Shown one piece after another: positions 15,385 to 28,575 of a DNA stretch of 28,575 nucleotides (the first letter of the stretch is position 1; every line of letters begins with the position of its first letter). Source of the DNA: Candidatus Kerfeldbacteria bacterium (lineage in GTDB: Bacteria > Patescibacteriota > Patescibacteriia > Veblenbacterales > UBA10138); assembly GCA_016234305.1 (NCBI GenBank), contig JACRFM010000021.1, forward strand, positions 1 to 28,575. Reading direction: 5' to 3'. The notes under the pieces are model-generated. The model was given only the letters and a program-made list of their open reading frames with translations. It did no database searches and was not told the DNA's origin. The translations under genes and the position numbers were made by a program.

Positions 15385-16044
15385 TTGGCTGTATTAGATA
15401 AGGACAAATCGTTTGTATTGGTAGTACTAGGGAAGAATTGGGTGGAATATCCACCTAAAGATCCACCGGCTGGTTGGAAGCTAGAACTAAGCCGAGATTC
15501 AAAAGTTACGGCCCTGGCCGCAGGAGTATTGGCAGAAAGTATTTCTGAAATAAAAAAAGTGATTTTTGTCACTGGTCATACGGATGGTCAGGCTTGGCCA
15601 ACTGAAGCCGAGGAAATGCAAAGGTACGCCGCCCAGTATTTTCCGGTATTAAGAGGCGATAAAGTTATTTGCGAGACCGAAAGTATAGATACGGCGCAAG
15701 GGGCGGAAAAAGTTAGAACCATTTTAGCTGGATATGGGTTATTGGATGAGACAGTAATACTCTTAACAGTAGGTTATCATTGCAAAAGAGCTTTAAGGGT
15801 TCATAAAAATTTTGGTTTTAAAAATGTTATTTGTCATAAATCCGAAAAGGTTTTGGCTGAAAGTTTTAACTCTGCGAATGCTAAACGTGTTTGTTGGAGA
15901 GCTTTGAAAGATTACAGGAATTATAGTCTGTTGCGCAAATTCAAAAAGTGGCTGGAGGAAATTATACTAAGAGTAGTCTTGATATTTGATCCTTATGGCC
16001 GCAGATTACGTTGTGTGACGAATCATACTCGTCACCAAAAGTAA
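15385..16044 (+). CDS. YdcF/DUF218 (ElyC/SanA-like) family protein
   Basis: VVLG, VIFVTGHT, TEAEEMQRYA, E-TESIDTAQGA, LLTVGYHCKRA; TTG start with AGGAGG 5 nt upstream. Confidence 0.78.
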   Translation: MAVLDKDKSFVLVVLGKNWVEYPPKDPPAGWKLELSRDSKVTALAAGVLAESISEIKKVIFVTGHTDGQAWPTEAEEMQRYAAQYFPVLRGDKVICETESIDTAQGAEKVRTILAGYGLLDETVILLTVGYHCKRALRVHKNFGFKNVICHKSEKVLAESFNSANAKRVCWRALKDYRNYSLLRKFKKWLEEIILRVVLIFDPYGRRLRCVTNHTRHQK

Positions 16045-16070
16045 AAAAATTATTCTGGTCTTTTATGAGC

Positions 16071-16096
16071 GAGCGGATTCAAATTTGAATCCGCTC
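16071..16096 (+). terminator. Intrinsic terminator separating DUF218 from the RT unit
   Basis: Perfect 26-bp palindrome GAGCGGATTCAAA|TTTGAATCCGCTC followed by TGTTTATTT. Confidence 0.75.
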
Positions 16097-16103
16097 TGTT
16101 TAT

Positions 16104-16132
16104 TTGACGAAAGGTACCTTTTCTATTAAGCT
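16104..16132 (+). promoter_or_regulatory. sigma70 promoter of the ncRNA-RT unit
   Basis: TTGACG (16104-09), N17, TAAGCT (16127-32); predicted TSS near 16139. Confidence 0.65.
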
Positions 16133-16138
16133 ATGGCC

Positions 16139-16360
16139 AGCCGGCAGAGTGAACGGTTCTTAAAAACGTTCTTTTTTCCAAGGGAACGAGGCGGTCAGAA
16201 TCTGGCCGCCGCCCAAAATAGCCTTGTTTAATAGGCATAGTTGACGCGTGCCAGTTGAGTTGAGGCATATTTATCAATACCAGATATTTATAAGTCGACG
16301 GAACACACTTAGGAGTCGCTTTATTAGCGGCTCCAGCCGGTGTTCTTTAAAAATTAGCAA
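16139..16360 (+). ncRNA. Candidate RT-associated structured RNA (msr/msd-like)
   Basis: No ORF of 60 aa or more. Hairpins at 16167-88, 16190-210 and 16301-45 (inner stem 16312-34), plus weaker stems. G-U pairs favour the plus strand. Lies directly upstream of a retron-type RT. Confidence 0.6.
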
Positions 16361-16380
16361 ACAAATTTAGGAGTCCAAAG

Positions 16381-17592
16381 ATGTCGCGAATAAAAATTGA
16401 AGGTGGAGACACCTTGTTGGCCGGCGTCTTAGGAATGCCCTCGGCTGATATAAGAAACGCGATAGTTTGTCGCGATAATTATAAAATTAAACACATAGTT
16501 AAAAAAAGCGGCGGACGACGTCGTTTGAGCATACCCTGTAAGAGTGTAAAGAAATTTCAAAAATTATTCCTTAAGAAGTTTCTTTATTGCTTGATAGAGC
16601 GGGGAGTGCTGGATAAAAATATGACTGGTTTTTTACCTGGTGTTTCGGTAAAAGATAATGCTTTAGTACATTTGAATGAAAATTTGCAGTACGTAGTGCG
16701 GCTTGATTTTAAGAATGCTTTTCCTTCAGTAAGTTTTAGAGTAGTAAAAGAGGTGCTGTTGCATCATGTAAAAAACGAAATTGGAACTTATCGGGCAGTG
16801 GAAATACAAAGATTGCTTGGTAAAAAAATTAATTATCCGGAACCGGTCTTGTTTTCCATGAGGAAGGTTAAATGGTTTCGGGAATTAGTGAGTAGTTTGT
16901 CAGTTGACAATTCGGCGAGTTACTATCTTGATTATATTGTTGATGGTTTTATTGAAATGGCGGCTTACCTTTTAACTTATAAAGGCAAATTACCGCAAGG
17001 TGCGCCAACTTCGCCTTTTATGTTAAATTTGACAGTGAGTTATTTAAAAATTCTTGATAGAATTAGAGAATTTTTAAAGCAAAACAACATTGACAGTCAA
17101 GTCAGTATTTATGCCGACGACATTGTAATTAGCGCCAAGGAAAGAATCAACTTTGGTTTGATTCGTGGCCTTATTGGAGTTGTTGAAGCAAGTAGAGTAT
17201 TTAGAATTAATCGGGCAAAAATACTACGTTTTGATATTAACCAAACCGCGCCGCTAATCACCGGTTTTAGACTTATTCGGATTCGTTCAGTGAATCGTAA
17301 ATTAACTGAAAGCTGGCTAGCTAGATTACCGCGCAAGATTAAAGCAACGGTGGAGGAGAGGCTGTTTTACAATCCGCAATCTCCGTTTATTAATATTACT
17401 TTACCCCAGAAACAAATTAAAAAAATTCGTGGGATTATTCATCGGGCCATATATCAACCCGGGCTGGCATCAAAAGTTAACGGTTACGTGGCTTATTTAA
17501 AAGATATTTATGGTGAACATTTGCCTAGGCAAATTGTGGAGCCCTACAAGAAATATTTATTAGTAAACCAAAAAGACCCGGAAGTAGTTTAG
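16381..17592 (+). CDS. Retron-type reverse transcriptase (RNA-directed DNA polymerase)
   Basis: KKSGGRRRLSIP, GFLPG, region X NALVH (aa 93-97), LDFKNAFPSV, LPQGAPTSP, YADD (aa 244-247, nt 17110-21), region Y ITG; AGGAG SD 7 nt before ATG. Confidence 0.9.
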   Translation: MSRIKIEGGDTLLAGVLGMPSADIRNAIVCRDNYKIKHIVKKSGGRRRLSIPCKSVKKFQKLFLKKFLYCLIERGVLDKNMTGFLPGVSVKDNALVHLNENLQYVVRLDFKNAFPSVSFRVVKEVLLHHVKNEIGTYRAVEIQRLLGKKINYPEPVLFSMRKVKWFRELVSSLSVDNSASYYLDYIVDGFIEMAAYLLTYKGKLPQGAPTSPFMLNLTVSYLKILDRIREFLKQNNIDSQVSIYADDIVISAKERINFGLIRGLIGVVEASRVFRINRAKILRFDINQTAPLITGFRLIRIRSVNRKLTESWLARLPRKIKATVEERLFYNPQSPFINITLPQKQIKKIRGIIHRAIYQPGLASKVNGYVAYLKDIYGEHLPRQIVEPYKKYLLVNQKDPEVV

Positions 17593-17604
17593 CCCGGGTC
17601 TTTA
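17571..17604. terminator. Bidirectional terminator overlapping the RT stop codon
   Basis: AAAAGACCCGG-N12-CCGGGTCTTTT, an 11-bp perfect stem between convergent RT and efp. Confidence 0.75.
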
Positions 17605-17620
17605 TTATTGGTAAAAATTT

Positions 17621-18187
17621 TTACGCCCGTTCCACGTAGTCGCCGGTTTCGGTGTTGACGATTATCATTTCATCGTTCTTTATAAACAGCGGCACATTGA
17701 TGATAAGGCCGGTTTCCAACTTGGCCTGTTTAGCGCCGCCGGTGGCGGTATCGCCTTTAACGCCGGGCGGAGTTTCCACTACCTTCAGTTTTACTTTTTT
17801 AGGCAATTCCACGTTAATCGGCTGGTTGTTGAAATTCAGAATATTCACTTCCACGCCGTCAGTCAAATAGCCCACTTGTCCACCCAAAGCTTCGCGGGGA
17901 AAATCAAACTGTTCAAAAGATTCCTGGTTCATAAAATGGCAGCCAGTATCGTCGGCATACAGGAAATTAGCGCGCAGGCGGGCCATGTCAGCTTCTTCCA
18001 CTTTGTCGCCCGGTTTAAAGGTTTGCTCCAAGACCTTGCCGTTTAGGAGATTACGCAACTTGGTGCGCATAACCGGCTTGCGCTGCGCGGTGCGCATAAA
18101 AGACGATTCCAGCACTAAATAAGGCTCATCATTAACCAAAATGCTTAAACCGTTGCGGATGGAATTGAGTGAGGGTAAAACTGCCAT
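17621..18187 (-). CDS. efp: Elongation factor P
   Basis: VMRTKLRNLLNG, FLYADD, PPGVKGDTATGG-KQAKLETG, VPLFIK...VNTETGDYVERA. Confidence 0.97.
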   Translation of the reverse strand: MAVLPSLNSIRNGLSILVNDEPYLVLESSFMRTAQRKPVMRTKLRNLLNGKVLEQTFKPGDKVEEADMARLRANFLYADDTGCHFMNQESFEQFDFPREALGGQVGYLTDGVEVNILNFNNQPINVELPKKVKLKVVETPPGVKGDTATGGAKQAKLETGLIINVPLFIKNDEMIIVNTETGDYVERA

Positions 18188-20067: not shown

Positions 20068-21270
20068 ATGGCAGAACAATATTTATTCATCTTAGGCCGG
20101 CAGCCGCAGTTAAGCGTGGCTGAAATCGCGGCGGTAGCTAGAGCGCGCCAACTTGCCATCACCTGGCAAACTATTACCGCGTCTTACGCTTTAGTCGAGG
20201 GGGATATTACTCCTGATTTTTTTAAACAACTGGCTGGTTCAATAAAACTGGCTCAGGTTTTGGCTGAAGTTGAATATAAGCCGAACATTATCCGGGACTT
20301 TGTGTTTAATTATCTAAGCAGCCTTACTGGCGGGTGTTTATTTGGTTTTAGTTGGTATGGTCATAAAATTCCCTCTTGGTTAAAGCCAATGGGTTTAGAA
20401 TTAAAAAGGGAAATAAAAGACAGCGGCCGGCGCGCGCGGCTAGTTGAATCCCGCCAGGATGTTTTATCTTCAGTAGTAGTACAAAAAAACCATCTCTTGC
20501 CGCCGCGCGGTACGGAGTTTATTTTGCAGCCGTTTAGTGAAACCAGAATAATTATTGCTCGGACCGTGGCCGTGCAGGAATTTGCCGAGTGGTCAGAGCG
20601 GGATTATGGCCGCCCCGAGCGTGATTCACGGGTTGGTATGCTGCCGCCTAAACTGGCACGCCTCATGATTAATTTGACTCAAGGTGAGTTGGCCGAGCCT
20701 TTATTAGACCCATTTTGCGGCTCGGGCACAGTCCTGCAGGAAGCGGTGGCTTTGGGCTATAAATCAATTTGGGGCAGTGATATTGATAAGCAAGGCATTG
20801 AGCGAACCGCCGCTAATTTACAATGGCTTAGGCAAAAACATCCGGAATGGCAATTTGAGGAAAAATTATTAGCGGCTGATGTCCGGCAACTTAAAACGCA
20901 GCTTAAAGATATAAAATTTGGCGCGATGGTAACCGAACCATATTTAGGGCCAACCAGCAGGATTTTTGATATTAAACAGTATCAGGCAGTAGCCAAAGAC
21001 TTAGTCTCTTTGTATCGTTTGGCTTTGAAAAATCTGGCGGTCTTGATATTGCCGGGTCGGCGTCTGGTAATGGTTTGGCCGGTATTTCATCTGGGCGCCA
21101 AGTTATTATATTTGCCTTTAGTAAACGAACTATCGAGTTTGGGCTGGAAAGTGGAAAACATCTTGCCGCCCCAAGCTCCGCCGGCTTGGTGTGACAAACG
21201 CGGTTCGTTGCTTTATGAACGTCCGGGGCAAAGGGTTGGGCGGGAGGTATTCGTGTTGCGCAAGGTTTAG
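20068..21270 (+). CDS. TRM11/Trm14-like SAM-dependent RNA methyltransferase
   Basis: GMLPPKLARLMINL, motif I LLDPFCGSGTVLQEA, GSDID, motif IV VTEPYLG. Confidence 0.72.
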   Translation: MAEQYLFILGRQPQLSVAEIAAVARARQLAITWQTITASYALVEGDITPDFFKQLAGSIKLAQVLAEVEYKPNIIRDFVFNYLSSLTGGCLFGFSWYGHKIPSWLKPMGLELKREIKDSGRRARLVESRQDVLSSVVVQKNHLLPPRGTEFILQPFSETRIIIARTVAVQEFAEWSERDYGRPERDSRVGMLPPKLARLMINLTQGELAEPLLDPFCGSGTVLQEAVALGYKSIWGSDIDKQGIERTAANLQWLRQKHPEWQFEEKLLAADVRQLKTQLKDIKFGAMVTEPYLGPTSRIFDIKQYQAVAKDLVSLYRLALKNLAVLILPGRRLVMVWPVFHLGAKLLYLPLVNELSSLGWKVENILPPQAPPAWCDKRGSLLYERPGQRVGREVFVLRKV

Positions 21271-21330
21271 CTTGGCAAGATTGGGAAGATTTGGTAGAGT
21301 AAGATATAACAATTTTTAATTTACAATTTT

Positions 21331-21380
21331 GGTTGCCTTGTGCAACTATCACGATGGCCATCGGGATAAAAGCGAAGCTT
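21331..21380. repeat. GC-rich palindromic core of a dispersed intergenic repeat (copy 1)
   Basis: GTTGC-N5-GCAAC hairpin, ATCACGATGGCCATCGGGAT (palindrome, 1 mismatch) and GCGAAGC, flanked by AT-rich heptamer runs. Confidence 0.6.
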
Positions 21381-21454
21381 TTATTTTTAATCAATTTTTA
21401 ATTTAATAATTTGATAATTCAATAAAAATTAAAAATTTGAAATTTATAATTTTT

Positions 21455-22465
21455 ATGATTCATTATCGCAATCGTTTGGGTATAGAACTTATAGATTTGC
21501 ATATCCATGTGGGTGGCGCCGTGGCGCCGCACATTATGTGGGAAATTGCGCATAAACAAGGTTTAAAATTGCCGGTGAAAAATTACTGGGATTTTTGGAA
21601 ACTAATTACGGCCACGGATGAAACTGTAAATAGTTTGGAAGAGTATGTGGATATAATGCATCGTTGGACCGAGAAAATTCAATCTAGTCCCGAGGCGGTA
21701 GAGCGGTGTGTTTATTCGATTTTAGCCAAAGAGTACCGTTCGTCTAATGTTAACCAAATTGAAGTCCGTTTTAATCCCATGAAGCGTAATAAAGGCGGGG
21801 AAATGGATCTGGACCATATTATTCAAGCGGCTTTGCATGGTATGGATAAGGCTAGTTTGGATTATGGGGTGAAAGCTGGTTTGTTATTTTGCTTGGCGCG
21901 TGAATTCCCCTTTGAGCTAAATGAGATTATTGTGCGTAAGGCCATTAAGTATATGTCTTGGGGCGTGGTGGGCATAGATATCGCCGGACCGGAAAAGCAC
22001 ACTTTTGAACAAGACCCAGATTTTGTTAGCTATAGAAAGTTATTTGCCGAAGCGCGAGCGGCTGGTTTAGGTTTAACTGTGCATACTGGTGAAACTAACG
22101 CTACTGGGCCGACGAGCATGCGGCAAGTACTTAAAGATATTAAACCGGAGCGAATTGGTCACGGTATTCAGGCGGTTAAAGACGAGGCCTTGCTTAAAGA
22201 GCTGGCCGCGGCTGGCACCGTGCTGGAAATTTGTCCGTCTTCCAATTTGCAAACCAAAGCTGTAAAAGATATAGGGGAATTGAAAGATATTATTTTTAAA
22301 CTAAAAGAGTTTGGCGTTAAATTCACCATTAATACCGATGGCCCTTATTTGCTAAATAGCAATATGAAAAAGGAGATTGAATTGTTGCTGCAGAACGAAA
22401 TTATGACTGAAGAGGAACTAAGGGCTGCTTTTGACCTCGCCCGTCAAGTCAGCTTTATTAAATAA
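21455..22465 (+). CDS. add: Adenosine deaminase family amidohydrolase (start reassigned to ATG 21455)
   Basis: DLHIHVGG (HxH), EVRFNP, VVGIDIAG, HTGE, RIGHG, LEICPSSN, INTDGP. Confidence 0.88.
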   Translation: MIHYRNRLGIELIDLHIHVGGAVAPHIMWEIAHKQGLKLPVKNYWDFWKLITATDETVNSLEEYVDIMHRWTEKIQSSPEAVERCVYSILAKEYRSSNVNQIEVRFNPMKRNKGGEMDLDHIIQAALHGMDKASLDYGVKAGLLFCLAREFPFELNEIIVRKAIKYMSWGVVGIDIAGPEKHTFEQDPDFVSYRKLFAEARAAGLGLTVHTGETNATGPTSMRQVLKDIKPERIGHGIQAVKDEALLKELAAAGTVLEICPSSNLQTKAVKDIGELKDIIFKLKEFGVKFTINTDGPYLLNSNMKKEIELLLQNEIMTEEELRAAFDLARQVSFIK

Positions 22466-22473
22466 TAAATAAT

Positions 22474-23283
22474 ATGTTAGAGGAGGCTGACTATAGAAAT
22501 TTTAAATCTAGTTTTGTTTTCTTGGATGAAACAGGTTTAATTCATAGTAATCGCGATCAATTTTTTGCTTTAGGTATATTAAAGTCAGACTATCCTCAAA
22601 AATTTTATCGGGAAATTAGAAAAATTAGAGATAAGTACAGATATAACGAAGAAATTAAGTGGGCTAAATTAGACCGAAAGATTAGATTTGATGTTGCCAT
22701 TGAAGTTTTTAATGCCTTTCTTGCTGATAATTCAGTTACTTTTAATTGTATAATTCTTGATAAGAAGGAATTAGACTTTAAGGGTTATTTTGATAACGAT
22801 TTATCTAAAGTCTATCGTAGTTTTACTATAGCTTTGTTGAAGCTAGCCATAGGCAAATATCCTGACGAGGTATTGGTAGTTTTAGCTGATGATTACTTTG
22901 TTCCTGAGGGTATAGAATTAGAAGAAACAATAAAAAAATTTATAAATAATCATTATAAAAAATTTGTTATAGCTGGAGTTTGTCAAATTAATTCTAAATC
23001 GTCCGATTTATTGCAAATTACTGATTTAATACTGGGAGCTACTTTGTATGACCTTAAAAGATCTAGGGGCCTAGTTAGTAAGCAGAATACTTTTAAAAGG
23101 AAATTTCTCAATTTTTTATATCAGAAATTAACTATAAAGAATTCTTTTTTTGTTTCTTTTAATGGGCATATGAATAGAAACTTTACTTTTTCTGGGAATA
23201 AAGTAAGAGCTACTATATTTGATTGTAAAAGATCGAGAGTAAACAAATATAACAAAAAACAAGCCATGACCCACAACGGGTGA
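22474..23283 (+). CDS. DUF3800 domain protein (RNase H-like fold, putative nuclease)
   Basis: FVFLDETG, EIKW, NSKSSDLLQITDLILGA; visibly more AT-rich codons than the neighbouring add. Confidence 0.8.
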   Translation: MLEEADYRNFKSSFVFLDETGLIHSNRDQFFALGILKSDYPQKFYREIRKIRDKYRYNEEIKWAKLDRKIRFDVAIEVFNAFLADNSVTFNCIILDKKELDFKGYFDNDLSKVYRSFTIALLKLAIGKYPDEVLVVLADDYFVPEGIELEETIKKFINNHYKKFVIAGVCQINSKSSDLLQITDLILGATLYDLKRSRGLVSKQNTFKRKFLNFLYQKLTIKNSFFVSFNGHMNRNFTFSGNKVRATIFDCKRSRVNKYNKKQAMTHNG

Positions 23284-23326: not shown

Positions 23327-23355
23327 AGTATATATATATTTAGAATTTTTGTCAA
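23327..23355 (-). promoter_or_regulatory. Near-consensus sigma70 promoter pointing antisense into DUF3800
   Basis: TTGACA (23355-50), N17, TATACT (23332-27). Confidence 0.7.
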
Positions 23356-24410
23356 TAGCATGTATGCGTCCACCACATATTGGACTTTTGCGGGTTAGAT
23401 TCAAGGAACATTAGGTATTGTACTGGGGATAGCTTGTTTCCGAAAGCGCAATGTGGTCGTTCCGTGTTATACCACAGAAGATACTCCATGAGTTTTTTGT
23501 TAAATACATTCGGTTCAAGAAGGAGATATTCATGGTAATCAGTGAATTCTTCTTGGATAGTACGGTTAAAGCGTTCGGCGTGGGCATTCATCTTGGGTGT
23601 TTGGGGATAGGTATGCCAATGGGTTTTGTACAACTGTCGTAAACGTAGATCAAAGTGCTTCATAAACTCACTGCCGTTGTCAGTCAGGATATATTCCAGC
23701 GGGTAGGGAAACACTGCCTGTACCAGAGCAAAGAACTCTTGCGCGGCTTGGCTGGCGTGGCTGGTGGTACTCCACGCAAAGGTGAATCTGCTGTCTAGAT
23801 CGGTGAAGGTAATGACGTACCGCCTGCAACCATGGATGAACTTTTCAATGGTGTCAAAACCACCACAATGTCCGGGATGAGTAGCTTTAAAATACTTGGG
23901 TTTTCTTAGGACTTTTGTTCTTTTCTTGGATTTAATCTTGCCGAAGTGGCTGACCTTTTGCGGGAAGATGCGTAACCCCCCGGCATCATTAATTAATCTG
24001 CCGATGGTGGAAGTTGATGGGCAGATTGCATTGCTTGTTAAACAGAACTTTTGCAACAAAGTATGTAGCTTATCTTTGCCCAGATTAGGGTGGAGTTCCC
24101 GTAAATTAGCGATCTCTTGGGTGATGGCAGAAGGCCACTGGCGTTGCCGTTTGTTAGGCGGCGCTGGGGATTTCTCATTCAAGGCTTCTAGTTTGCCACC
24201 ACCGTCATTAAGCGCTTGTTTCCATAGAAACAAAGTGGACCGTTTGACTGGAAAAGCATCCAGCGTTGCCTGCAGACCGTGATCTGCCCAGAATTTTAGC
24301 ACTCTGGTTTTGTGCTTGGCTTTGGGGGTAATCATATACCGCCAGCGTAGCCCGTATTGCCAAGCACGCACAAAACCATGTGTACCCTTAAATATGTTCA
24401 ATTGTTGCAT
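23352..24410 (-). CDS. IS481-family DDE transposase (HTH plus integrase core)
   Basis: DDE triad in GFDT, TDNGSEF and NAHAERFNRT; the AGGAG SD sits in hairpin GACTCCT-N6-AGGAGTC (24413-32). Confidence 0.9.
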   Translation of the reverse strand: MQQLNIFKGTHGFVRAWQYGLRWRYMITPKAKHKTRVLKFWADHGLQATLDAFPVKRSTLFLWKQALNDGGGKLEALNEKSPAPPNKRQRQWPSAITQEIANLRELHPNLGKDKLHTLLQKFCLTSNAICPSTSTIGRLINDAGGLRIFPQKVSHFGKIKSKKRTKVLRKPKYFKATHPGHCGGFDTIEKFIHGCRRYVITFTDLDSRFTFAWSTTSHASQAAQEFFALVQAVFPYPLEYILTDNGSEFMKHFDLRLRQLYKTHWHTYPQTPKMNAHAERFNRTIQEEFTDYHEYLLLEPNVFNKKLMEYLLWYNTERPHCAFGNKLSPVQYLMFLESNPQKSNMWWTHTCY

Positions 24411-28435: not shown

Positions 28436-28575
28436 GGCTCTAGACTAGATGATTTAATGTTTTAAGTAGTTTTTATAGATAATCCACAGGTCTGTTTGTA
28501 GGGTAGCAAGTTTCCGACCGTACCGCCATTCGCACTCTTTAAGATGTAAATCAAAATGTTTCTTAACACCATTGA
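28436..28575 (-). mobile_element. End of an IS1595-family (IS1016-like) element, truncated by the window edge; transposase C-terminus at 28573-28454
   Basis: Partial frame NGVKKHFDLHLKECEWRYG...KH* (HLKECEWR motif); terminus GGCTCTAGACTAGAT at 28436; AT-rich adjacent octamer ATAAATAA (28428-35) is the expected TSD. Confidence 0.75.

What the first reader, a model, noticed from the sequence alone, without database searches (positions are those of the whole stretch)
16104..17604. Self-contained retron-like unit: promoter, ~240-nt structured RNA, RT, terminator, with no effector gene
Seen: upstream terminator, then a sigma70 promoter, a ~240-nt ORF-poor multi-hairpin leader, a 403-aa RT with the retron-diagnostic region X (NAxxH) and region Y (ITG) plus intact YADD, and a terminator over the stop codon. 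Established: characterised retrons are tripartite anti-phage systems (ncRNA, RT, effector) with long a1/a2 inverted repeats. Here the unit is monocistronic, has no fused effector domain I can recognise, and I found only a 6-bp possible end-to-end pairing. Inference: an atypical CPR retron-related RT-ncRNA system acting alone, through its inserted segments, or with an effector in trans. Best candidate in the window for an undescribed system.
Basis: partly seen in the sequence, partly recalled or inferred. Interest (0 to 1): 0.85.

Follow-up and report, generated by a model that had tools for sequence, protein, structure and literature searches.

The report
Effector-less retron-like cassette in CPR bacterium
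A 1.5-kb self-contained unit in an ultra-small (CPR) bacterium carries its own promoter, a conserved folded RNA and a retron-type reverse transcriptase but no toxin partner, and it belongs to a deep-branching lineage that none of the retron type models tested here covers.

Summary
Window 16104-17609 contains a promoter, a roughly 210-nt structured RNA, a 403-aa retron-type reverse transcriptase (NAxxH, YADD and ITG intact) and a terminator over the stop codon.

- **Self-contained unit.** A same-genus genome lacks exactly this block, between the same two terminators.
- **No partner gene.** The RT is the only gene shared by 27 homologous loci.
- **Conserved RNA.** Homologs keep the promoter, a 9-bp hairpin (GGYRGUCAG-NNN-CUGRCYRCY) with compensatory changes, and a GC hairpin. 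They also keep a short terminal pairing that differs in sequence from locus to locus but stays complementary (own versus foreign partner -10.5 versus -6.6 kcal/mol, permutation p 2e-5).
- **Outside the tested types.** The RT scores at most 118 bits on any PADLOC retron-type model. True members score 360-800 bits on their own type and 180-300 on other types. In a tree it falls in a CPR clade separate from types II-A, III-A, I-C, XI, XIII and Ec107.
- **Readings rejected.** A DRT2-like coding template, a DGR, and a link to the nearby DUF3800 gene were tested and not supported.

Stand-alone retron cassettes are already in print for other clades (Mestre 2020). This scan has also noted similar effector-less CPR retron-like units on other DNA. 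cDNA synthesis and function remain untested.

The parts
16071..16105 (+). Intrinsic terminator of the upstream DUF218 gene. It marks the left edge of the inserted block and is not part of the unit.
   Evidence: The scan found an 11-bp stem plus T run. It is homologous to L180 6563-6599 in same-genus genome G006.
16104..16132 (+). Sigma-70-type promoter: -35 TTGACG (16104-09), 17-nt spacer, -10 TAAGCT (16127-32). The predicted transcription start is about 16139.
   Evidence: A TTGACA-17-TAnnnT promoter scoring 9 or more of 12 is found at the same relative place in 15 of 20 homologous loci. In the window it matches 8 of 12 and is not listed.
16139..16349 (+). Retron-like ncRNA as a whole: a closed multi-branch fold followed by a conserved 3' motif.
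   Evidence: MFE -75.8 kcal/mol, z -4.85. The architecture matches 20 homologs. Rfam has no match. The genome holds a single copy.
16140..16145 (+). a1-like 5' arm (GCCGGC), pairing with 16336-16341.
   Evidence: Own versus foreign partner duplex energy is -10.5 versus -6.6 kcal/mol over 20 loci, permutation p 2e-5. The pairing is present in the MFE fold.
16147..16160 (+). 5' strand of a second long-range helix (P1b): GAGUG 16147-51 and GGUUC 16156-60, pairing with 16300-16310. It contains the candidate priming G residues (G16147, G16149).
   Evidence: MFE fold. Homologs show CAGGCUU/AAGCCUG, GCGGGCUU/AAGCUUGC and GAGCAGGCUU/AAGCUUGCUC. The statistical support is weaker than for a1/a2: MWU p 0.008 and permutation p 2e-5, and the window's own 3' partner ranks only 16th of 20 for this helix.
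16167..16188 (+). Stem-loop SL1 (9 bp).
   Evidence: MFE fold. Most homologs have a hairpin at the same position, but its sequence is not conserved.
16190..16210 (+). Stem-loop SL2, the conserved hairpin GGCGGUCAG-AAU-CUGGCCGCC. It is the likely RT recognition element.
   Evidence: A regex finds it in 23 of 33 loci. RNAalifold predicts 9 pairs, 3 with compensatory changes and none broken in 12 sequences. All strong hits of covariance model R1 (E below 0.03) lie on the + strand, upstream of the RT, in about 29 of the 95 sources searched. These include RTs only about 27% identical.
16221..16290 (+). Variable middle domain SL3 (two to three hairpins), probably part of the template (msd-like).
   Evidence: MFE fold. 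Length and sequence are hypervariable among homologs: the putative template region is 89-210 nt. In run X1 an IS element is inserted here, at 16271-16277.
16300..16310 (+). 3' strand of P1b (GGAAC 16300-04, CACUU 16306-10).
16312..16334 (+). Stem-loop SL4, a GC-rich 9-bp hairpin directly 5' of a2. This is the likely start of the template.
   Evidence: An unbiased hairpin search finds an 8-13-bp GC-rich hairpin at this place in 17 of 22 loci, with different stem sequences. MFE fold.
16336..16341 (+). a2-like 3' arm (GCCGGU).
16341..16349 (+). Conserved 3' motif UGUUCUUUA (consensus YGUUCUUUMAC) just after a2. Its role is unknown.
   Evidence: It is conserved in the alignments, with TTT invariant.
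16381..17592 (+). Reverse transcriptase gene, 403 aa (P0001). RBS AGGAG at 16369-16373.
16657..16671 (+). Region X, NALVH (the retron NAxxH motif).
   Evidence: H97 is invariant, and S89 upstream is invariant.
16759..16956 (+). Insert 1 (residues about 127-192), between RT motif A and motif B, relative to the Ec86 RT. It is helical and contains the family signature PLFxxRKVxWFRxL.
   Evidence: In the profile alignment to Ec86, 64 profile positions face 11 Ec86 residues. F166 and R167 are invariant. The model shows helices with pLDDT above 84.
17110..17121 (+). Catalytic YADD.
   Evidence: D246 and D247 are invariant; Y244 and A245 are nearly invariant.
17257..17265 (+). Region Y, ITG (the retron VTG motif).
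   Evidence: T294 and G295 are invariant.
17269..17382 (+). Insert 2 (residues about 297-334), directly after region Y. It is variable and is missing or much shorter in about a third of the family.
17575..17609 (.). Bidirectional terminator shared with the convergent efp gene. The RT stop codon (17590-92) lies in its loop. It marks the right edge of the block.
   Evidence: Fold -19.3 kcal/mol, z -4.97. It is homologous to the efp terminator of G006.

Best explanation
This is a self-contained two-part retron-like element of a deep-branching lineage found mainly in CPR/Patescibacteria.

**Shown:**
- A block of about 1.47 kb (about 16106-17570) carries its own sigma-70 promoter, a roughly 205-nt ncRNA and a catalytically intact retron-type RT.
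- The block is present or absent as a unit between two host terminators.
- No protein-coding partner travels with it.
- The RNA has the retron layout. A short terminal a1/a2 helix closes the fold. A 5' half holds two hairpins, one of them highly conserved (SL2). A 3' half holds a variable domain plus a GC hairpin that abuts a2.

**Inferred:**
- The RT binds SL2.
- The a1/a2 helix brings a G just 3' of a1 (G16147 or G16149) next to the base 5' of a2.
- The RT then copies SL4 and SL3 into an msDNA-like cDNA of about 100-120 nt.

**Speculative:**
- With no toxin encoded, the RT-RNA-cDNA particle or its DNA synthesis is itself the output, as in single-gene RT defences.
- The accessory, patchy and fast-evolving behaviour points to a role in conflict with phages or other mobile DNA.
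For: **RT identity**
- PADLOC's best 25 hits are all retron RT models.
- A profile search of PDB sequences gives Ec86 at 1.8e-26, against group II RTs at 3e-9.
- Foldseek's top hits are Retron-Eco7, Eco2, Ec86, Ec78 and Eco8.
- The NAxxH, QGxxTSP, YADD and xTG motifs are invariant.

**Self-containment**
- G006 (same genus) aligns on both sides and across both terminators but lacks 16106-17621.
- The RT is the only ORF family shared by 27 loci.
- Seven annotated neighbourhoods are all different housekeeping contexts, each with a noncoding gap of about 300-360 nt before the RT.

**RNA**
- The promoter, SL2, SL4 and the 3' motif are conserved.
- SL2 shows covariation.
- Covariance model hits occur only upstream of RTs on the RT strand.
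- The a1/a2 complementarity is specific to each locus.
- The MFE fold of the window RNA reproduces the comparative model.

**Accessory behaviour**
- The family is in 2 of 61 related genomes.
- RTs at one syntenic site are 33-71% identical while flanking proteins are 67-88% identical.
- An IS-disrupted allele occurs in a natural population.
Against: - No cDNA, transcript or phenotype has been observed. The only public run holding the locus is kept as assembled contigs, so neither expression nor cDNA could be read from it.
- The a1/a2 helix is only 6 bp in the window. That is shorter than the 12-nt repeats of Ec86 (from my own knowledge).
- The priming G cannot be assigned. An AG dinucleotide lies within 6 nt of a1 in 17 of 19 loci, judged by eye only.
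- The extra helix P1b and the hairpin between P1b and a2 are not part of the classical msr-msd picture.
- The tree had no outgroup and lacked types I-A, I-B, IV-X. "Sister to classical retrons" is therefore provisional.
- Long residence at housekeeping sites in some lineages would also fit a non-defence role.
Confidence: 0.6

Rival explanations
1. It is an ordinary tripartite retron whose effector is encoded elsewhere in the genome (in trans). One candidate is the DUF3800 gene 4.9 kb downstream, because DUF3800 is the effector family of type VII retrons.
For: - A DUF3800 gene lies at 22474-23283 in the same window.
- One other RT-bearing genome also has a DUF3800 gene.
Against: - DUF3800 is in 2 of 7 RT-bearing genomes and in 11 of 59 RT-less relatives, so there is no enrichment.
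- The window's DUF3800 matches PADLOC candidate PDC-M04A, not a retron effector model, and it sits beside an IS integrase.
- The cassette is gained or lost alone.
- No gene recurs within 5-6 kb in 27 loci.
- Mestre 2020 notes that most genomes with orphan retrons lack homologs of known retron partners (PMC7736814).
Confidence: 0.12
2. It is a DRT2-like system. The RT copies the template RNA repeatedly to assemble a new protein-coding gene (neo-type), so the "effector" is written by the RT.
For: - It has the same two-part layout: a lone RT plus an upstream structured ncRNA.
- DRT2 and DRT9 RT structures appear among weaker fold matches (ranks 25 and 35).
Against: - The putative template has stop codons in all six frames in 6 of 20 loci, including the closest relative L001.
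- Template length and sequence are hypervariable, at 89-210 nt.
- The RT groups with retron RTs, not UG/DRT RTs.
Confidence: 0.03
3. It is a domesticated, non-defence RT-RNA pair, for example one supplying ssDNA for repair, recombination or regulation in genome-reduced CPR cells.
For: - It is always embedded among housekeeping genes.
- One lineage keeps it at the same site through substantial divergence.
- The promoter is a strong consensus in homologs, which suggests constitutive expression.
- Mestre 2020 raises domestication for vertically inherited orphan clades (PMC7736814).
Against: - It was found in only 2 of 61 related genomes, most of them 90% or more complete.
- It is missing from the same-genus genome.
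- It is disrupted by an IS element in part of a natural population.
- The RT diverges much faster than its flanks.
Confidence: 0.2
4. It is a selfish mobile retroelement that spreads the cassette itself.
For: - It is a clean 1.47-kb indel.
- It occupies many different insertion sites.
- Two distant lineages carry it beside the efp terminator.
Against: - The block includes its own promoter upstream of the transcription start, so an RNA copy would not carry it.
- It has no endonuclease or integrase domain.
- No terminal repeats or target duplications are visible at the junctions.
- There is a single copy per genome.
- It is absent from phage collections.
Confidence: 0.05

Closest known systems
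Stand-alone (msr-msd)-RT cassettes, or "orphan retrons": the Retron-Eco5 (Ec107) branch of RT clade 2, and clade 11 (Mestre et al. 2020, PMC7736814)
   Same: Both are a retron-lineage RT with a contiguous upstream ncRNA and no associated protein cluster. Both carry the open question of whether a partner was lost or is not needed.
   Different: - **RT lineage.** The PADLOC RT_Ec107-like model gives only 73 bits. An Ec107-like RT falls in the other half of the tree.
- **Hosts.** These are CPR genomes, where clade 2 is Gammaproteobacteria and clade 11 is Actinobacteria.
- **RT insertions.** This RT carries two insertions of about 53 and 36 aa.
- **ncRNA.** It has its own conserved hairpin and a very short a1/a2.
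Retron-Eco1 (Ec86, type II-A), the best match among solved structures by sequence profile
   Same: Both share the RT fold and the motifs NAxxH, YADD and VTG. In both, the ncRNA lies upstream on the same strand and its ends pair.
   Different: - Ec86 works with an effector protein (7v9x is its complex with the effector). None is present here.
- The a1/a2 helix is 6 bp here against 12 nt in Ec86 (my own knowledge).
- This RT has extra segments after motif A and after VTG.
- Only 96 bits link the family profile to the Ec86 RT.
Type III-A retron RTs (top PADLOC model, PDLC02946)
   Same: This is the highest-scoring retron type model for this RT: 118 bits, E 1e-34.
   Different: - True III-A members score 359-456 bits over the full length, while here the match is split into two partial stretches.
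- No PRTase-type partner recurs with the family.
- III-A RTs form their own clade away from this family.
DRT2 / DRT9 (UG-class RT plus ncRNA defence systems)
   Same: Both have a two-component architecture in which DNA synthesis itself is the output.
   Different: - The RT lineage is different.
- The template is not coding.
- The RNA has retron-like closure by terminal pairing.

Membership tests
Retron (general definition: RT + msr-msd ncRNA) | [quoted passage not shown] | tested here: met
   NALVH is at residues 93-97 and ITG at 293-295, invariant across the family. All top HMM, PDB-sequence and fold matches are retron RTs.
Retron (general definition: RT + msr-msd ncRNA) | Structured ncRNA directly upstream on the RT strand, closed by inverted repeats a1/a2 | tested here: met
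   GCCGGC 16140-45 pairs with GCCGGU 16336-41. The complementarity is locus-specific in 20 homologs, p 2e-5. The MFE fold agrees. The helix is short, at 5-9 bp.
Retron (general definition: RT + msr-msd ncRNA) | Conserved priming (branching) G immediately 3' of a1 | tested here: inconclusive
   A G lies within 1-4 nt of a1 in all loci listed. An AG dinucleotide lies within 6 nt in 17 of 19, by eye. No alignment-based test was possible.
Retron (general definition: RT + msr-msd ncRNA) | Production of msDNA (2'-5' branched RNA-DNA) | not testable with these tools
   The only run holding the locus is stored as contigs.
Tripartite retron types I-XIII (Mestre 2020; PADLOC models) | RT assigned to a type-specific RT model | tested here: not met
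   The best score is 118 bits (RT_III-A), split in two stretches. Members score 360-800 bits on their own type and 180-300 on other types. NCBIfam retron_St85_RT gives 104 bits against a cut-off of 235. The family lies in a separate clade in the tree.
Tripartite retron types I-XIII (Mestre 2020; PADLOC models) | Conserved effector gene or fused effector domain | tested here: not met
   Only the RT is shared by 27 loci. The cassette is an indel on its own. Pfam finds RVT_1 only. DUF3800 is not associated.
Known ncRNA families (Rfam 15) | Match to a curated RNA family model | tested here: not met
   There is no hit at gathering thresholds in the window. At E up to 10, only terminator-like chance hits fall outside the ncRNA, plus one weak antisense chance hit (snoTBR6, E 3.9) over its 3' end.
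DRT2-type (neo) RT-ncRNA systems | Template with a stop-free frame that can be concatenated | tested here: not met
   Six of 20 templates have stops in all six frames.
Diversity-generating retroelement | Template repeat with a diverged copy (VR) in a target gene | tested here: not met
   The own genome holds no second copy of 16106-16380 beyond chance 14-24-nt matches.
Group II intron | Intron RNA domains and a maturase-type RT | tested here: not met
   Rfam finds no intron. TIGR04416 gives 45 bits against a cut-off of 300. Group II RTs rank below retron RTs.

The most novel reading that the evidence does not exclude
CPR bacteria carry a large, deep-branching lineage of two-part retrons that work without any protein effector. 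The RT-ncRNA-cDNA particle, with a family-specific insertion between RT motifs A and B, would be both sensor and output. Alternatively, it serves a function other than abortive-infection defence.
Probability: 0.3. Interest if true: 0.8.

Novelty: new variant of a known kind. Interest (0 to 1): 0.6.

Why it matters
Retrons are now understood as three-part toxin-antitoxin-like defence systems, and the few "orphan" cassettes in print are unexplained. This unit adds three things to that picture:
- It is a clean natural example showing that promoter, ncRNA and RT form a complete transferable unit.
- It belongs to a family of hundreds of sequence clusters in ultra-small bacteria that the current retron type models do not capture.
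- Its RNA has clearly assignable parts.

If it makes cDNA, it would show what a retron does without a toxin. It would also offer a compact new RT-template pair for DNA-writing tools.

Tried and rejected
- **Public reads for msDNA or expression.** One groundwater run holds the locus, but only as contigs, so it gave no read-level information on cDNA or transcripts. It did reveal an IS-interrupted allele.
- **Whole-ncRNA alignment.** MAFFT misaligned a1/a2 and SL4. I tested the long-range helices instead by duplex energies of own versus foreign partners. The first version, with windows fixed relative to SL2, was weak (p 0.002). Anchoring on the promoter gave p 2e-5.
- **Hand-written structure.** I did not pass a structure string to the pair-counting tool, to avoid typing long strings. 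Only SL2 therefore has tool-made covariation counts.
- **DUF3800 as trans effector.** Rejected.
- **pyrE/pyrF adjacency as a PRTase-type partner.** It is seen in a sister clade and in 2 of 27 family loci, so it does not recur.
- **DRT2-like coding template.** Rejected.
- **DGR.** Rejected.
- **Carriage by phages.** No family member turned up in INPHARED or IMG/VR.
- **phmmer of the single protein against PDB.** It found nothing at E 1e-10. Only the family profile reaches Ec86.
- **P0127.** This is a 719-aa double-RT protein that scores high on every retron model. I left it out of the tree as uninformative.
Full report
**What is in the sequence**

The ORF 16381-17592 (+) encodes a 403-aa protein, P0001. 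It matches Pfam RVT_1. In PADLOC its 25 best hits are all retron RT models, the best being RT_III-A at 118 bits in two partial stretches. NCBIfam's best hit is retron_St85_RT at 104 bits, far below its cut-off of 235.

Upstream lies an intrinsic terminator, 16071-16096 plus a T run. Downstream, a hairpin at 17575-17600 encloses the stop codon (-19.3 kcal/mol, z -4.97). The leader is much more structured than shuffled controls (z -3.9; z -4.85 for the predicted transcript). Rfam recognises nothing in it.

The neighbours are housekeeping genes. RecA, a bPH-domain protein, a 300-aa protein with no Pfam family and a DUF218 protein lie upstream. The convergent efp-rpsR-ssb-rpsF genes lie downstream.

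**The unit is self-contained**

The genome is 0.91 Mb and 95% complete, and it holds a single RT. The one same-genus genome searched lacks the RT family.

Its homologous region aligns with the window through the DUF218 gene and the upstream terminator hairpin (window 16070-16105). The alignment resumes at the efp stop (17622). About 60 nt in that genome stand in place of window 16106-17621. The last eight or so RT codons and the stop read into sequence homologous to the efp terminator. The block that is gained or lost is therefore promoter plus RNA plus RT, and nothing else.

Seven annotated homologous loci lie in seven unrelated housekeeping contexts, each with a noncoding gap of about 300-360 nt in front of the RT. 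Clustering all ORFs of 60 aa or more within about 5-6 kb of the RT in 27 family loci gave one family common to all, the RT itself. The next clusters, in at most 6 loci, reflect host synteny.

**The RNA**

Alignment of the upstream regions showed several shared features:
- a TTGACA-17-TAnnnT promoter
- a conserved hairpin, GGYRGUCAG-NNN-CUGRCYRCY
- a GC-rich hairpin near the 3' end
- a YGUUCUUU motif after it

RNAalifold predicts the conserved hairpin (SL2) with 9 pairs, 3 of them with compensatory changes and none broken in 12 sequences.

A covariance model of the 5' domain was searched against 95 sources totalling 0.75 Mb. All of its strong hits (E below 0.03) lie on the RT strand upstream of the RT, in about 29 of those sources. 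They include RTs only about 27% identical. The own genome has only one significant hit.

The first nucleotides of the predicted transcript are complementary to the segment that follows the GC hairpin, and the sequences differ from locus to locus:

| Locus | 5' arm | 3' arm |
|---|---|---|
| window | GCCGGC | GCCGGU |
| L001 | AAGUGGC | GCCACUU |
| L005 | GUCAAGG | CCUUGAC |
| L093 | UACCGUGU | ACACGGUA |
| L099 | ACCUAAG | CUUAGGU |
| L100 | UCCUAAG | CUUAGGA |

Duplex energy of each 5' end with its own 3' segment averages -10.5 kcal/mol. With the 3' segments of other loci it averages -6.6 (20 loci; Mann-Whitney p 2e-7; permutation p 2e-5).

A second long-range helix (P1b) joins the segment just 3' of a1 to the segment just 5' of the GC hairpin. 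Its support is weaker.

The unconstrained MFE fold of window 16139-16349 reproduces this comparative model exactly: a1/a2, P1b, SL1, SL2, a variable middle domain and SL4. This is the retron arrangement, with terminal inverted repeats that enclose 5' recognition hairpins and a 3' template hairpin next to a2. The terminal helix is unusually short.

**The RT**

The AF2 model is confident (pLDDT 92). Its best structural matches are retron RTs: Eco7, Eco2, Ec86, Ec78 and Eco8. Group II and DRT RTs rank lower.

The family profile aligned to the Ec86 RT shows two insertions:
- **Insert 1**, about 53 aa, lies between motif A and motif B (residues about 127-192). It is conserved and carries the signature PLFxxRKVxWFRxL. 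In relatives it expands to about 200 aa, with no Pfam domain.
- **Insert 2**, about 36 aa, lies right after the VTG motif (residues about 297-334). It is missing or much shorter in about a third of the family.

I see no evidence for an effector domain.

**Placement**

An exhaustive profile search found 385 cluster representatives at E up to 1e-30. Among the best 150 listed, about 60 align full-length in a single stretch.

Named records are mostly Patescibacteria: Brennerbacteria, Saccharibacteria and Peribacteria. One record labelled Gammaproteobacteria belongs to the same genome-taxonomy family as the window's genome.

For calibration, true members of retron types score 360-800 bits on their own PADLOC model and 180-300 bits on the models of other types. 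This family reaches only 90-125 bits on any model. It is therefore further from every type model than the types are from each other.

In a maximum-likelihood tree of 63 RTs, all labelled types (II-A, III-A, I-C, XI, XIII, Ec107-like) form one clade (support 99). The family, its longer relatives and most of a set of shorter RTs, two of them traced to Patescibacteria records, form the other (support 95). The tree has no outgroup and lacks several types, so this placement is provisional.

**Behaviour**

- The family occurs in 2 of 61 related genomes.
- In one lineage it sits at the same site while the RTs are 33-71% identical and flanking proteins 67-88% identical.
- In the window and in a distant pair of genomes it lies beside efp.
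- In the one public run that holds the locus, two contigs end at 16271-16277 with a 7-nt overlap. They continue into inverted ends (GGCTCTAGACTAGAT...) of a repeat that also sits at contig ends of this genome. This is an IS insertion in the variable part of the RNA.

These features fit an accessory element in a fast-moving conflict better than a core function.

**Alternatives tested**

- **DRT2-like coding template:** 6 of 20 templates have stops in all frames.
- **DGR:** the genome holds no second copy of the RNA region.
The window's copy matches a different PADLOC candidate system and lies beside an IS integrase.
- **Phage carriage:** none found.

**Literature and earlier notes**

Mestre et al. 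2020 report stand-alone (msr-msd)-RT cassettes in branches of clade 2 (Ec107) and clade 11, and call them orphan retrons (PMC7736814). A 2026 metagenome survey used a conservative RT threshold and does not mention Patescibacteria (PMC13712802). Full-text searches that combined "retron" with CPR names found no description of this lineage.

This scan has noted similar effector-less retron-like RT-ncRNA units in CPR genomes on other DNA. Those are unchecked notes and are not used as support here.

**Verdict**

This is a two-part retron-like cassette of an uncatalogued CPR lineage. That it makes an msDNA-like cDNA from SL4-SL3 is inferred from the anatomy. What the product does is unknown. A defence-type role in which DNA synthesis or the RNP is itself the output is my preferred but weakly supported reading.

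Noticed in passing
window 16271-16277; also 28436-28450: In public run X1, two contigs stop at 16271-16277 (7-nt overlap TTATCAA) and continue into inverted ends GGCTCTAGACTAGAT.... The same 15-mer lies near the end of this contig and near the ends of two other contigs of the genome. This looks like an active IS element with a polymorphic insertion that disrupts the ncRNA.
   Followed up: partly
window 22474-23283 (+) and 23352-24410 (-): An AT-rich DUF3800 gene matches the PADLOC candidate system PDC-M04A and lies beside an rve-type IS integrase. It was tested as a possible trans effector of the RT, and no association was found.
   Followed up: yes
window 20068-22465: A methyltransferase has weak PADLOC hits (mad2, type II MTases), and an adenosine deaminase resembles the deaminase part of a CARF-ADA model. 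Together with DUF3800 and the IS element they may form a small defence islet.
   Followed up: no
window 17621-18187 (-); L010, L012: The RT lies convergent to efp in the window and also in two distant genomes, where efp is only about 40% identical to the window's and the RT about 38%. This could be coincidence or a preferred site at the efp terminator.
   Followed up: partly
L189, L190, L160, L008, L105: RTs of the shorter sister clade and two family members lie next to pyrF and pyrE (OMP decarboxylase and a phosphoribosyltransferase). This recalls the orotate phosphoribosyltransferase beside Retron-Eco5 noted by Mestre 2020. The adjacency does not recur across the family.
   Followed up: partly
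window 16302-16317 and 16360-16375: The 5' arm of SL4 (AACACACTTAGGAGTC) nearly duplicates the ribosome-binding region (AACAAATTTAGGAGTC). The 3' arm of SL4 could therefore pair with the RBS instead. This was not seen in homologs.
   Followed up: partly
window 16041-16070 versus L180 6120-6536: The same-genus genome has an extra 138-aa ORF between the DUF218 gene and its terminator. The window lacks it.
   Followed up: no
P0127: A 719-aa metagenomic protein carries two retron-type RT domains in tandem (about 34-342 and 390-697).
   Followed up: no
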